Source of the DNA: Chlamydiota bacterium
GTDB lineage: Bacteria; Chlamydiota; Chlamydiia; Chlamydiales; JACKPQ01
Reading direction: 5' to 3'
NCBI GenBank assembly: GCA_021772435.1
Contig: JAJFLZ010000020.1
Coordinates: forward strand, 22,983-86,982
DNA length: 64,000 bases
Shown: positions 57,259 through 58,797 of the stretch, piece by piece
Layout: every line of letters begins with the position of its first letter
Numbering within the stretch: the stretch's first letter is position 1
Position numbers and translations under genes: made by a program
The notes under the pieces: model-generated
The model's input: only the letters and a program-made list of their open reading frames with translations
What the model was told of the DNA's origin: nothing
The model's database searches: none

Positions 57259-58797
57259 ATGAAAACAATCATTTGTTTGATTTGCAGCATTTCTACACTA
57301 CTATTTACGCAAGATGCGATCAGCCTGCCTGATCCTAAACCTCTAGCAGAAGACGGTTACGTCATCAACTTCTCCGAAGTGTCGATGGCTGAATTTGTGC
57401 GCTTTGTCAGCAAAATTGCCAAAGTAAATTTTGTCTTTAACGAAGAGGACCTATCCTACCCAGTCAACGTCATATCTGGCAAACCCACAAAACCTGAAAA
57501 AGTGCTTGATCTGCTTATTGGACTGCTTGGTGAATATGGCCAAAAAGCCGTACCCAAAAATGGCTACTACGTCATCAAAAATGTGGAACCAGAACCAGAG
57601 CCAGAGATCGTTATTGATCTGCCCCCAGTTGCTATTATTCCACCACAAGATAAATTTAACGTCTACAAACTCCAGTACCACGAAGGCGCTGAAATCCTCG
57701 ATACCGTTAAACAAATTGCCCACCAGATCAAATCTCAGCCAGGCGCATCACCTGATCTGCTAGCGTCTATCGACTCCATGCAGTGGGTCAAAGCGACCAA
57801 CTCTCTACTCTTTTCGGGCCAGCCAGATGGCGTAAAAAAACTATCCAATCTCATCGACAGCTTAGATACTCCCTTGCGCCAGGTGTTTATCGAAGTCCTG
57901 GCCATCGAAACAAGCGTTAAAAATTCACTAGAATTTGGTGTTGATTGGGCAGCCGGTGGCAAGCTCAAAGATGCACTTGGTTTTGGTATGGGTGAGATCG
58001 GCGTTGGGCCAAAAGGACGCAGCTTTGCCTCTACATTCCAAGGCATCAATGGCAAAAATACACCAGCAGGACCTAGTCAAGCGCCGCTTGGCAGAGGTTT
58101 TGACCTAAGCATAATCGGCGATATCATCCTGCATAAAGGCAAAACATTTCTAACCCTTGGCACGCTTGTCTCAGCACTTGAGCTTGATGGGTCAAGCAAA
58201 GTCATGCTCAACCAAAAAATCATCACCCAAGACAACAAAGCTTCAAATATCTTTGTCGGCGAAAACATCCCCTTCACAGGCTCAGTTGTCAACACCGTCG
58301 GCGCCTCGCAGCAAACCACAGCAAACATCGAATACCGCGATGTCGGCGTTGCGCTCAACATCAAACCGCGCCTTGGCAACGAAGACATTATTACGCTTGA
58401 AATCTCCGAAGAGATCTCACAAGCAGAGCCCAACCGATTTTCCAGAGGCGATAACTCAGATGGCATCCTCACCACTAAAACCAACATGCTCACCTCTGCA
58501 CACGTACCTGACCAGAGCTTTCTTGTGCTCTCTGGCATGGTTAAAAACTCCTCATGCAAACGCAAATCAGGTCTTCCCTGCCTAGGCAGCCTTCCCATTG
58601 TTGGTGCGCTCTTTAGCAAAACGCACGATGAAGAAGATAAAAAAGCCATCCTCGTTTTTGTCCGCCCACAAATCATCAACTCCATCGACGACTTCAAACG
58701 CGTAACAGCGCAAAACCAAGCCATCTGCAGCGAAATGTCTTCTGAGCCAAATTTAAAAGAAGCCATGCGCGCACTTGTGGAGAGCCCCAATGAGTAA
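57259..58797 (+). CDS. compact secretin (N0 domain, one N domain, secretin domain)
   Basis: Signal peptide, then N0-like YVINFSEVSMAEFVRFVSKIAKVNFVF. Secretin core RQVFIEVLAIETS...GLPCLGSLPIVGALFS...ILVFVRPQII. 512 aa. Confidence 0.8.
   Translation: MKTIICLICSISTLLFTQDAISLPDPKPLAEDGYVINFSEVSMAEFVRFVSKIAKVNFVFNEEDLSYPVNVISGKPTKPEKVLDLLIGLLGEYGQKAVPKNGYYVIKNVEPEPEPEIVIDLPPVAIIPPQDKFNVYKLQYHEGAEILDTVKQIAHQIKSQPGASPDLLASIDSMQWVKATNSLLFSGQPDGVKKLSNLIDSLDTPLRQVFIEVLAIETSVKNSLEFGVDWAAGGKLKDALGFGMGEIGVGPKGRSFASTFQGINGKNTPAGPSQAPLGRGFDLSIIGDIILHKGKTFLTLGTLVSALELDGSSKVMLNQKIITQDNKASNIFVGENIPFTGSVVNTVGASQQTTANIEYRDVGVALNIKPRLGNEDIITLEISEEISQAEPNRFSRGDNSDGILTTKTNMLTSAHVPDQSFLVLSGMVKNSSCKRKSGLPCLGSLPIVGALFSKTHDEEDKKAILVFVRPQIINSIDDFKRVTAQNQAICSEMSSEPNLKEAMRALVESPNE

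What the first reader, a model, noticed from the sequence alone, without database searches (positions are those of the whole stretch)
57259..58797. Compact orphan secretin outside any T2SS, T3SS or pilus gene cluster
This 512-aa protein has a signal peptide, an N0-like domain (YVINFSEVSMAEFVRFVSKIAKVNFVF...GYYVIKN), a single further N-type domain and a secretin core (RQVFIEVLAIETS ... GLPCLGSLPIVGALFS ... ILVFVRPQII). It is much shorter than the chlamydial GspD and CdsC secretins as I remember them. Its N0-N-secretin layout resembles the minimal filamentous-phage pIV type. No ATPase, platform, pseudopilin or needle genes are adjacent. Its neighbours are an IS-truncated helical-repeat protein upstream (which could be a pilotin- or PilF-like partner, though that is speculative) and a translationally coupled 141-aa unknown downstream. 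The locus is recombinationally active, as described in the next finding. It may be a remnant of, or a novel minimal, outer-membrane export device.
Basis: partly seen in the sequence, partly recalled or inferred. Interest (0 to 1): 0.6.

Follow-up and report, generated by a model that had tools for sequence, protein, structure and literature searches.

The report
Stand-alone short secretin of environmental chlamydiae
This gene encodes an intact, well-conserved short outer-membrane channel protein found in hundreds of environmental chlamydial species; it appears to be a duplicated, trimmed-down copy of their type III secretion channel, always stands alone in the genome, and the machine it serves is still unknown.

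Summary
ORF 57259-58797 (+) encodes a 512-aa secretin with a signal peptide, N0, a flexible Pro/Glu linker, one N3-type domain, the secretin core and two C-terminal helices. No ATPase, platform, pilin or needle gene lies in the 64-kb window or within 10 kb of 88 homologous loci.

It is not a one-off or a remnant:
- At least 303 chlamydial species genomes encode a relative (46-86% identity in the 80 loci retrieved).
- The gene sits in conserved synteny.
- It is under strong purifying selection (dN/dS 0.05-0.17).

The same genomes carry a separate T3SS secretin, CdsC (667-2401 aa), placed after Pkn5 in all 10 contexts checked. The compact protein's barrel is 53-57% identical to the CdsC of its own genome, and in a rooted tree it groups with the giant-CdsC clade (75% bootstrap). 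I read it as a cdsC-derived paralog that kept a phage-pIV-like N0-N3-secretin layout; it matches the pIV profile end to end.

Its N0 has diverged from the conserved CdsC N0, so it probably docks elsewhere. The neighbouring genes are not pilotins or conserved partners.

One question stays open. I could not show directly whether it is extra to a CT572-type T2SS GspD (favoured on indirect evidence) or is itself the unlinked T2SS secretin.

The parts
57259..58797 (+). Compact secretin gene, 512 aa, intact
   Evidence: ORF. Pfam Secretin, N0 and Secretin_N. Best NCBIfam hit GspD at 229.6 bits, below the 351 cutoff. dN/dS 0.05-0.17 against 4 orthologs.
57259..57318 (+). Predicted N-terminal signal peptide (about residues 1-20, MKTIICLICSISTLLFTQDA). 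No canonical lipobox.
   Evidence: Read directly from the sequence. The model shows a helix at residues 2-18. No signal-peptide predictor was run.
57355..57582 (+). N0 domain (residues 33-108)
   Evidence: PF21305 at 27.8 bits. Block pLDDT 77-92. Only 31-42% identical to the N0 of CdsC from the same genome.
57583..57651 (+). Flexible Pro/Glu-rich linker (residues 109-131)
   Evidence: pLDDT below 50 for residues 112-129. Poorly conserved consensus in the family alignment.
57652..57879 (+). Single N3-type (Secretin_N) domain (residues 132-207)
   Evidence: PF03958 at 26 bits, sub-threshold. Block pLDDT 72-86. An HMM of this domain finds 5-22 tandem copies in the giant CdsC paralogs.
57880..58683 (+). 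Secretin core (barrel and gate, residues 208-475), including the G-L-P-C-L-G-S-L-P-I-V-G-A-L-F motif with invariant Cys441
   Evidence: PF00263 E=5.4e-35. Invariant columns. Cys at the position where proteobacterial GspD has Leu. 53-57% identical to the CdsC core of the same genome.
58684..58779 (+). Two C-terminal helices (residues 476-507), possibly S-domain-like
   Evidence: Helices 476-493 and 496-507 in the AlphaFold2 model, at low confidence. Weakly conserved in the family.
58790..59215 (+). Overlapping downstream ORF (141 aa from the ATG, 146 aa from TTG 58775), clade-specific, function unknown
   Evidence: 8-nt overlap with the secretin stop. Homologs only in L001, L008, L009 and L010. 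No Pfam, NCBIfam or PHROG hit. Single-sequence model uninformative, pLDDT 39.
56240..57109 (+). 3' remnant (ORF 56432-57109, 225 aa) of a 671-aa lineage-specific gene, truncated at the IS
   Evidence: tblastx and blastp matches to L008 7829-9844. The full-length protein has no signal peptide and no TPR hit.
54990..56229 (+). Intact IS element (transposase 55072-56202) at a synteny breakpoint
   Evidence: 33-nt inverted repeats, 91% complementary. DDE_Tnp_1_assoc plus DDE_Tnp_1. The left flank (DapF-AlaDH-SNF2-Der) is the block that flanks CdsC in other genomes.
59269..60744 (+). 491-aa ORF inserted between the two repeat copies. No known family and no homolog in related loci.
   Evidence: Absent from the orthologous loci L001, L008 and L009.
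60771..61343 (+). Partial second copy of the secretin (codons ~243-388 plus the last ~44), disrupted by a 242-nt deletion: a pseudogene fragment
   Evidence: blastn: 57983-58422 matches 60771-61210 at 94%; 58665-59219 matches 61211-61765 at 98%. Pfam Secretin matches only profile positions 1-90. dN/dS 0.08 and dS 0.22 against copy 1.
61336..61761 (+). Second, intact copy of the 141/146-aa ORF
   Evidence: 98-99% identical to the first copy. dN 0.006, dS 0.062.
61866..63440 (-). MFS transporter: syntenic anchor, first gene of the MFS-EmrA-OEP efflux block that follows the secretin in related genomes
   Evidence: Same order in L001, L002, L008 and L009.

Best explanation
What it is: the gene encodes a functional, vertically inherited, stand-alone secretin. 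It belongs to a family confined to environmental Chlamydiota (Simkaniaceae- and Rhabdochlamydiaceae-type genomes).

Origin: the family arose by duplication of the chlamydial T3SS secretin gene cdsC. It is reduced to the minimal N0, flexible linker, one N3 and secretin layout that is also seen in filamentous-phage pIV.

Shown:
- It is a secretin with this architecture.
- It co-exists with a separate CdsC in the same genomes.
- Its barrel is the closest relative of clade-II CdsC.
- It is never linked to machinery genes.
- It is under purifying selection.

Inferred:
- It assembles into the usual multimeric gated pore in the outer membrane, with a short N3 vestibule. The N0 ring hangs on a flexible tether.
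- Its N0 has drifted away from the strongly conserved CdsC N0, so it no longer docks on the injectisome ring protein CdsD. It serves an inner-membrane machine encoded elsewhere.
- My best guess for that machine is the phylum's minimal T2SS-type apparatus (GspE/F/G, which lacks GspC/L/M). The protein would act as an additional or alternative portal beside a CT572-type GspD, much as the orphan secretin XqhA can serve the Xcp system of Pseudomonas aeruginosa (from my own knowledge of that system).
For: Secretin identity and architecture.

Family breadth and vertical inheritance: more than 120 homologs at 47-89% identity. 303 species genomes encode a relative. Two conserved synteny types emerged. 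The closest relatives show LbtU-like porin, secretin, small ORF, then MFS-EmrA-OEP on the opposite strand, as in the window.

Separate CdsC in the same genomes:
- CP073763.1 holds P0043 (561 aa) and P0394 (1683 aa). P0394 lies after CdsN-CdsQ-Pkn5.
- Matching contig lengths give 9 further co-occurrences.
- All 10 non-compact contexts inspected are CdsC.

Origin from cdsC:
- Barrel identity is 53-57% to the same-genome CdsC, against 36-40% between CdsC clades.
- Both share Cys in the G-x-P-C-L-G motif where GspD has Leu.
- Outgroup-rooted NJ tree bootstraps: chlamydial secretins 100%, compact clade 78%, compact plus CdsC clade II 75%.

Divergent docking domain: N0 is 31-42% identical to CdsC. 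CdsC orthologs keep 56-60% in N0.

Functional gene: dN/dS 0.05-0.17.

Indirect evidence for a third, T2SS-linked GspD:
- T2SS D, E and F homolog clusters have exactly one member in each of 37 Chlamydiales genomes, Simkania included. These clusters are separate from any CdsC cluster (PMC3899948).
- Type-B synteny (kdsA ... hemA) corresponds to C. trachomatis gene indices 672-679, not the gspD locus at 585.
- IMG labels family members with the SctC name, never 'general secretion pathway protein D'.
Against: - No genome could be inventoried completely. The presence of a CT572-type GspD beside the compact secretin in one genome is inferred from a 2012 MCL clustering, not seen directly.
- The tree is neighbour-joining on 342 columns. 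Deep nodes are weak (14-48%), so nesting inside CdsC rests on a single 75% node and on identity values. Rate differences or gene conversion could mimic it.
- The best HMM and the best solved-structure matches are T2SS GspD. That fits a plain GspD role. Verified CdsC proteins show the same preference, so this does not discriminate.
- Nothing links the protein experimentally or by gene context to any partner. The proposed T2SS partnership is a guess.
Confidence: 0.5

Rival explanations
1. It is the organism's T2SS secretin: the functional GspD, equivalent to C. trachomatis CT572. The rest of the T2SS (gspE/F/G) is simply encoded elsewhere. In environmental chlamydiae the secretin has become unlinked and has lost N1 and N2.
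For: - The best curated-model hit is GspD TIGR02517 (229.6 bits). The best solved-structure matches are GspD/XcpQ.
- The chlamydial T2SS lacks GspC/L/M (PMC6668835). N1 and N2 could therefore be dispensable, and N0 could evolve under relaxed constraint.
- Among about 370 non-compact chlamydial secretins retrieved, every context checked was CdsC (10 of 10). No third, gspE-linked secretin was ever seen.
- Every one of 37 Chlamydiales genomes has exactly one 'GspD-cluster' protein. In Simkania that protein could be this one.
Against: - The score is below the GspD equivalog cutoff (351), and the protein lacks N1 and N2.
- Verified CdsC proteins score even higher on the same model (281-322 bits), so the GspD hit is not diagnostic.
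- The barrel is 53-57% identical to the co-resident CdsC, and the family groups with CdsC clade II. An MCL clustering would therefore be expected to place it with CdsC, not with CT572-type proteins.
- It is never within 10 kb of gspE/F in 88 loci. gspD-E-F-G are contiguous in Chlamydia.
- Type-B synteny maps to the kdsA-hemA block, not to the gspD locus.
Confidence: 0.3
2. It is an alternative outer-membrane ring of the injectisome: a short CdsC isoform. The ancestral cdsC duplicated, one copy expanded its N-domain array (5-22 repeats) and the other shrank to one. This gave two T3SS portals with different periplasmic spans, for example for different developmental forms.
For: - Its closest relatives are CdsC.
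- In every co-occurrence seen, the compact gene is paired with an N-array-expanded clade-II CdsC.
- T3SS genes are scattered in chlamydiae, so lack of linkage is not decisive (PMC3459982).
Against: - N0 is the domain that contacts the inner ring. It is conserved among CdsC orthologs (56-60%) but only 31-42% identical in the compact paralog.
- The protein lacks the additional N domains (N1-type) that T3SS secretins have.
- It is never adjacent to any T3SS gene in 88 loci.
Confidence: 0.12
3. It is a filamentous-phage pIV gene or the relic of an integrated inovirus or other mobile element.
For: - The architecture is identical to pIV. PHROG 1012 aligns end to end at 200 bits.
- f1 pIV falls next to the chlamydial secretins in the tree (79%). 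Abby and Rocha reported the same.
- An IS and a duplication lie nearby.
Against: - Identity to f1 pIV is only 23%, and no viral contig encodes a relative.
- No phage gene lies nearby.
- The chromosomal position is conserved among housekeeping genes across the phylum.
- The IS and the duplication are private to this genome.
Confidence: 0.02
4. It is a non-functional leftover of a lost secretion system.
For: It stands alone, and the locus has been rearranged.
Against: - The ORF is intact. dN/dS is 0.05-0.17 against four orthologs.
- More than 100 columns are invariant across 31 family members.
- Relatives are retained in at least 303 species.
Confidence: 0.02

Closest known systems
Chlamydial T3SS secretin CdsC (SctC; CT674 in C. 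trachomatis)
   Same: - It is the closest relative by sequence. The barrel is 53-57% identical to the CdsC of the same genome.
- Both have the same N3-type domain.
- Both have Cys in the G-x-P-C-L-G motif.
- Both belong to the 'T2SS-like' secretin class that chlamydiae recruited for their injectisome.
   Different: - It has one N domain; CdsC has several to 22.
- It is 485-600 aa; CdsC is 667-2401 aa.
- Its N0 is divergent.
- It does not lie in the cdsD...cdsN-cdsQ-pkn5-cdsC cluster.
- It co-exists with a true CdsC, so it is a paralog and not the T3SS secretin.
Filamentous-phage secretin pIV (f1/M13; PDB 7OFH)
   Same: It has the identical minimal layout (signal peptide, N0, flexible linker, N3, secretin). 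The pIV profile matches it end to end. Size is similar (426 aa against 512 aa).
   Different: - Identity is only about 23%.
- The gene is chromosomal, syntenic and vertically inherited.
- No phage genes (pI/pXI partner) are nearby or detectable.
T2SS secretin GspD (PulD, XcpQ, EpsD; TIGR02517)
   Same: It is the best curated-model hit and the best solved-structure match over N3 plus secretin. Both have an N0 domain. The C-terminal helices could be S-domain-like.
   Different: - The score is below the equivalog cutoff.
- N1 and N2 are missing.
- The gene is unlinked to gspE/F/G.
- It has Cys where GspD has the conserved Leu in the V-P-L-L-G-D motif.
Orphan secretin XqhA of Pseudomonas aeruginosa (from my own knowledge; not tested here)
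   Same: It is a secretin gene that stands outside any secretion-system cluster yet can act as the outer-membrane portal of a T2SS encoded elsewhere. It is a precedent for a functional 'orphan' secretin.
   Different: - XqhA is a full-length GspD-type protein, a close paralog of XcpQ.
- The chlamydial protein is truncated in its N domains and derives from a T3SS secretin lineage.

Membership tests
Secretin superfamily (PF00263) | C-terminal secretin domain that matches the profile above threshold | tested here: met
   PF00263 at 120.9 bits against a cutoff of 27.5, covering the full profile (1-168 of 169). Foldseek top hits are all secretins.
Secretin superfamily (PF00263) | Periplasmic N0 domain and at least one N (ring-building) domain, preceded by a signal peptide | tested here: met
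   N0 at 27.8 bits against a cutoff of 27. Secretin_N at 26.0 bits against 28.2, marginal. Both domains fold confidently in the model. The hydrophobic N-terminus was read from the sequence.
Secretin superfamily (PF00263) | Assembly into a heat- and SDS-stable 12-15-mer in the outer membrane | not testable with these tools
   This needs biochemistry or a multimer structure prediction.
T2SS GspD (NCBIfam TIGR02517 equivalog) | Score at or above the curated equivalog cutoff | tested here: not met
   229.6 bits against a cutoff of 351.35. Verified CdsC proteins score 281-322 bits on the same model.
T2SS GspD (NCBIfam TIGR02517 equivalog) | N0-N1-N2-N3 periplasmic architecture | tested here: not met
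   Only profile positions 234-600 plus an N0 stretch match. The model shows N0 and a single N domain.
T2SS GspD (NCBIfam TIGR02517 equivalog) | Encoded with, or at least functioning with, gspE/F/G | tested here: inconclusive
   No gspE/F or pilin gene lies in the window or within 10 kb in 88 loci. Whether it works with an unlinked T2SS cannot be told from sequence.
Chlamydial CdsC / SctC (T3SS secretin) | Position at the end of the cdsD...cdsN-cdsQ-pkn5 cluster | tested here: not met
   All 10 CdsC contexts show this position. None of the 88 compact-family loci does.
Chlamydial CdsC / SctC (T3SS secretin) | Being the single T3SS secretin ortholog of the genome | tested here: not met
   A separate CdsC co-occurs on the same chromosome or contig in at least 10 cases.
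Chlamydial CdsC / SctC (T3SS secretin) | Common descent with CdsC (same chlamydial secretin clade) | tested here: met
   Chlamydial secretins are monophyletic at 100%. The compact family plus CdsC clade II has 75% support. Core identity is 53-57%.
Filamentous-phage pIV | N0-N3-secretin architecture that matches the pIV profile | tested here: met
   PHROG 1012: residues 32-474 to profile positions 20-401 of 403, E=1.2e-58.
Filamentous-phage pIV | Encoded in an inovirus genome or prophage beside pI and other phage genes | tested here: not met
   The neighbours give no PHROG hits. No relative exists in 2.9 million viral contigs. The best phage hits are 23-30% identical.
T4P / competence secretin PilQ/HofQ | Score above the family cutoff, with AMIN domains or pilMNOP/hofMNOP linkage | tested here: not met
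   PilQ 135 bits against a cutoff of 284. HofQ 86 bits against 554. No pilM-P genes nearby. ComEC lies within 10 kb in only a few loci.

The most novel reading that the evidence does not exclude
Environmental chlamydiae of the Simkaniaceae/Rhabdochlamydiaceae type carry three secretins: a T2SS GspD, a CdsC whose N-domain array has expanded to as many as 22 repeats, and this minimal paralog born in the same duplication.

On this reading the short form is not a spare part of either known system. It would be the pore of an undescribed route across the chlamydial outer membrane. Two examples: an autonomous pIV-like gated channel, or a length-partitioned second injectisome portal used in a different developmental form.
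Probability: 0.2. Interest if true: 0.75.

Novelty: new variant of a known kind. Interest (0 to 1): 0.5.

Why it matters
Secretins are normally read as markers of the machine they sit in. Here a strongly conserved secretin stands alone in hundreds of chlamydial genomes, and its nearest relative is the T3SS secretin rather than a canonical GspD. If it is a third channel, the outer membrane of environmental chlamydiae has an export or uptake route that nobody has assigned.

If instead it is their T2SS secretin, the chlamydial T2SS outside the Chlamydiaceae uses a T3SS-derived, pIV-sized pore. That would explain why the phylogeny of chlamydial T2SS secretins disagrees with that of the rest of the system.

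Either way there are two practical consequences:
- Automated labels on these proteins ('type III secretion protein C', 'GspD', 'hypothetical') are unreliable.
- The paired evolution of a minimal and a giant secretin offers a natural experiment on what N-domain number does.

Tried and rejected
1. Source genome. The exact protein is not on record. The genome collection holds only an 86%-identical relative. A direct inventory of the organism's gspD, sctC and ATPases was therefore impossible.

2. Hunting a T2SS-linked secretin. I looked up five candidate non-compact secretins: P0394, P0374, P0385, P0342 and P0352. I then spent the metagenome scan on the basal P0241/P0264 type. All ten contexts turned out to be CdsC.

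3. NCBIfam as a discriminator. CdsC and the compact proteins both hit GspD below the cutoff, so it is uninformative.

4. Neighbour genes as partners.
   - The ~875-aa downstream gene of type-B loci is a cytoplasmic DHH-like protein.
   - DUF5399 is divergent and of unknown function.
   - The LbtU-like porin, the 671-aa helical protein, the 141-aa ORF and the 72-aa ORF are each lineage-restricted.
   - ComEC synteny holds in only a few loci.

5. The Walker-A hits near some loci were FtsK.

6. Structure of the 141-aa ORF. The fold search of the secretin model confirmed the fold but did not separate subtypes.

7. Promoter and terminator scan: no more sites than expected by chance.

8. Literature. 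Ten searches and 14 papers yielded no description of this short family or of the CdsC N-domain arrays. The identity of S. negevensis SNE_A20110 ('GspD-related', pulled down with SneRING) could not be resolved. Supplements of Denise et al. list only the C. trachomatis T2SS.
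Full report
**1. The observation.**

- Pfam finds the Secretin domain (residues 306-473, E=5.4e-35). The GspD-like N0 domain sits at the threshold (27.8 bits against 27). One Secretin_N domain falls just below its threshold (26.0 bits against 28.2).
- An AlphaFold2 model built on a 31-sequence family alignment is confident for N0 (residues 33-108) and for one N3-like domain (134-205). 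It shows a disordered Pro/Glu linker (112-129). The barrel is poorly modelled, as expected for one subunit of a multimer. Two C-terminal helices follow (476-507).
- The fold search returns only secretins, with PulD/GspD first.
- The PHROG family of M13 pIV aligns end to end (residues 32-474 to profile positions 20-401 of 403, 200 bits). The GspD model covers only its C-terminal 60% plus N0. The description 'N0, one N domain, secretin, pIV-like layout' is therefore correct.

**2. The surroundings.**

- Upstream lies an intact IS (54990-56229) with 33-nt inverted repeats and a DDE transposase.
- The 225-aa ORF after the IS is the C-terminal part of a 671-aa protein that is intact in the closest relative, L008. 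That protein has no signal peptide and no TPR hit, and it occurs in no other locus. It is not a pilotin or PilF-like partner.
- Downstream, a 141-aa ORF (146 aa from an upstream TTG) overlaps the secretin stop by 8 nt. It has homologs only in the four closest loci, no family hit and no signal peptide or lipobox.
- In 24 other loci the same position holds a well-conserved but unrelated ~72-aa ORF.
- The window has a private 2.5-kb insertion. It consists of a 491-aa ORF without homologs, a partial second copy of the secretin with a 242-nt deletion, and a second copy of the small ORF.
- The rest of the window encodes housekeeping genes (Lon, rhomboid, P450, SHMT, ClpP, DnaJ, Lnt, DapF, AlaDH, SNF2 helicase, Der).
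- A motif scan of all ORFs in the window and 90 loci found no GspE/PilB-type ATPase and no prepilin. The only Walker-A hits were FtsK.

**3. It is a family, not an orphan.**

- The protein database holds more than 120 relatives of 485-650 aa at 47-89% identity, all from Chlamydiota or mislabelled bins.
- 303 species-level genomes encode a relative. The best match is the MAG HK-STAS-VERR_A-4 at 86%.
- The gene sits in two recurrent contexts.
  - Type A (Simkaniaceae-like, including the window's lineage): peptidase S9, LbtU-family porin, secretin, small ORF, then MFS-EmrA-OEP on the opposite strand.
  - Type B: lptB, kdsA, dapB, DUF5399 (divergent), secretin, ~875-aa DHH-like cytoplasmic protein, KH protein, pseudouridine synthase, recX, hemA.
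- No neighbour is conserved across the whole family, and none belongs to a secretion machine.
- The gene is under strong purifying selection, with dN/dS 0.05-0.17 against four orthologs. More than 100 alignment columns are invariant.

**4. Its relatives.**

An exhaustive profile search returned, above the family itself, proteins of 1200-2400 aa with 8-25 matched stretches. These have N0, a long tandem array of Secretin_N domains and a secretin core.

Every non-compact relative whose context I could see lies directly after CdsN, CdsQ and the kinase Pkn5, and is followed by a 315-aa gene and yidD. That is the classical position of the T3SS secretin CdsC. This held in 10 of 10 cases, for proteins of 667 to 1683 aa.

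The same chromosomes also carry the compact gene. CP073763.1 holds both P0043 and P0394. Matching contig lengths give nine further co-occurrences. The compact protein is therefore not the T3SS secretin but a paralog of it.

- Within one genome the two barrels are 53-57% identical. That is more than between CdsC orthologs of the two CdsC clades (36-40%).
- Both have Cys in the G-x-P-C-L-G motif where proteobacterial GspD has Leu.
- I built a neighbour-joining tree rooted with three proteobacterial GspDs. The chlamydial secretins are monophyletic (100%), and f1 pIV is their neighbour (79%). The compact family is one clade (78%). It groups with the N-array-expanded CdsC clade II (75%), apart from clade I, which holds four context-verified CdsC. 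Deeper nodes are weak.
- All nine CdsC that co-occur with a compact gene are clade II.
- The compact protein's single N domain is the same type that clade-II CdsC repeats 5-22 times.
- The N0 domains behave oppositely. CdsC N0 is conserved across the phylum (56-60%). The compact N0 is 31-42% identical to CdsC and only 34-36% identical between compact orthologs of different families.

**5. Is it the T2SS secretin?**

The source genome is not in any collection, and my searches returned only CdsC and compact proteins.

The curated GspD model does not discriminate. The compact proteins score 230-240 bits and verified CdsC 281-322 bits. All are below the cutoff of 351. This agrees with Abby and Rocha, who found that the chlamydial T3SS secretin is T2SS-like and clusters with pIV (PMC3459982).

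Indirect evidence favours a separate T2SS GspD:
- In a 37-genome MCL analysis, the T2SS D, E and F homolog families each have exactly one member per genome. The set includes Simkania, Waddlia, Parachlamydia and Protochlamydia. The D family is distinct from any CdsC family (PMC3899948). A protein 53-57% identical to CdsC would be expected to cluster with CdsC.
- gspD-E-F-G are contiguous in Chlamydia and are described as an operon in a phylum-wide regulatory comparison (PMC4652624). The compact gene is never near gspE/F.
- Type-B synteny corresponds to the kdsA-hemA block of C. trachomatis (gene indices 672-679, next to cdsD at 681). It does not correspond to the gspD locus (index 585).
- IMG assigns family members the SctC name or the generic COG name, never the gspD name.

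Against this, no gspE-linked third secretin was ever seen. The chlamydial T2SS also lacks GspC/L/M (PMC6668835), which would fit a secretin without N1 and N2.

I put the third-paralog reading at about 0.65-0.7 and the plain unlinked-GspD reading at about 0.3.

**6. How it most likely works.**

Shown: an intact, selected, signal-peptide-bearing secretin with N0, a flexible linker, one N3 and a barrel.

Inferred from what is established for secretins (GspD, pIV and InvG cryo-EM structures):
- It forms a multimeric gated pore in the outer membrane.
- The N3 ring forms a short periplasmic vestibule.
- N0 is tethered flexibly, as in pIV, to reach an inner-membrane partner.

N0 is not under the CdsC-type constraint, so I think it no longer docks on CdsD. 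The only other secretin-dependent machine documented in the phylum is the minimal T2SS. That is my best guess for the partner, with the protein acting as an additional or alternative portal. Orphan secretins that plug into a T2SS encoded elsewhere are known (XqhA of P. aeruginosa; my own knowledge).

The alternatives are a short injectisome isoform (0.12) or an autonomous or novel route (included in the novel case).

**7. Phage or mobile origin and decay are rejected.**

- The best phage matches are 23-30% identical.
- No viral contig encodes a relative.
- The neighbours have no phage-family hits.
- The chromosomal position is conserved across the phylum.
- The IS and the duplication are private to this genome.

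**8. Novelty.**

I found no description of this short family, or of the N-domain arrays of environmental CdsC, in the searchable literature. The protein is a new variant of a known kind: a stand-alone, T3SS-secretin-derived, pIV-sized secretin. Interest is moderate. It is a clear, testable puzzle for chlamydial cell-envelope biology, but the fold and the basic pore mechanism are conventional and the key question of its partner is open.

Noticed in passing
Related loci L088 (10001-15052), L089-L092, L094-L096; proteins P0121-P0269: The chlamydial T3SS secretin CdsC varies enormously in length (667-2401 aa). In Simkaniaceae/Rhabdochlamydiaceae-type genomes it carries 5-22 tandem copies of one N3-like domain (Pfam counts up to 16 in one protein; HMMER reports up to 25 matched stretches). 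I found no description of these arrays in the literature searched.
   Followed up: partly
window 59269-61765: A 2.5-kb insertion is absent from the three closest relatives. It holds a 491-aa ORF with no family hit and no homolog in about 118 loci, then a partial secretin copy (242-nt deletion) and an intact second copy of the 141/146-aa ORF. The partial copy differs from the functional gene mostly at synonymous sites (dN/dS 0.08, dS 0.22). That suggests it came from a diverged functional allele rather than decaying in place. The 3' block is 98% identical against 94% for the 5' block, which hints at gene conversion.
   Followed up: partly
window 46286-56229: The IS (54990-56229) sits at a synteny breakpoint. 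DapF-AlaDH-SNF2 helicase-Der on its left is the block that flanks the T3SS secretin CdsC in other chlamydial genomes (L088-L092). The N-terminal ~390 codons of the gene on its right are missing from the window. By rearrangement, the compact secretin now occupies the side of Der where CdsC sits elsewhere.
   Followed up: partly
window 51792-53346 (-): Three small ORFs (166, 102 and 196 aa) each have a long, Ala/Gly/Ile-rich hydrophobic stretch and no family hit. This resembles the bilobed hydrophobic domains of chlamydial inclusion-membrane (Inc) proteins.
   Followed up: no
L011 8356-9777 and 15 other type-A loci, directly upstream of the secretin: A ~470-aa protein that matches the LbtU-family siderophore porin model (230 bits against a cutoff of 90) is the conserved upstream neighbour in Simkaniaceae-type loci. 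In the window it has been lost at the IS breakpoint.
   Followed up: partly
L073 11598-11825 and 23 other loci, immediately after the secretin stop: A conserved ~72-aa basic helical ORF (...DPAPFKTF...KQFLKNMTRHF...MRKMKEA...) follows the secretin in many Simkaniaceae-type genomes. It is unrelated to the window's 141-aa ORF (hhalign probability 0.1%) and has no family hit.
   Followed up: partly
L007/L033 4837-13613: In one Rhabdochlamydiaceae genome the compact secretin is flanked by three U-box/RING-type genes. In S. negevensis a 'GspD-related secretin' (SNE_A20110, identity unresolved) was among the top proteins co-purifying with the RING effector SneRING (PMC12591485).
   Followed up: partly
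window 36150-37517 (+): A cytochrome P450 gene (455 aa, Pfam p450 E=2e-25) in a chlamydial genome segment. I have not checked how common this is in the phylum.
   Followed up: no
Loci L031, L032, L034, L035, L044, L047, L051, L055, L060, L065, L069, L071, L078: Many public MAGs that carry this chlamydia-specific secretin in chlamydial synteny are labelled Verrucomicrobia, Acidobacteriota or even Chlamydia trachomatis. These are probably taxonomic mislabels.
   Followed up: no
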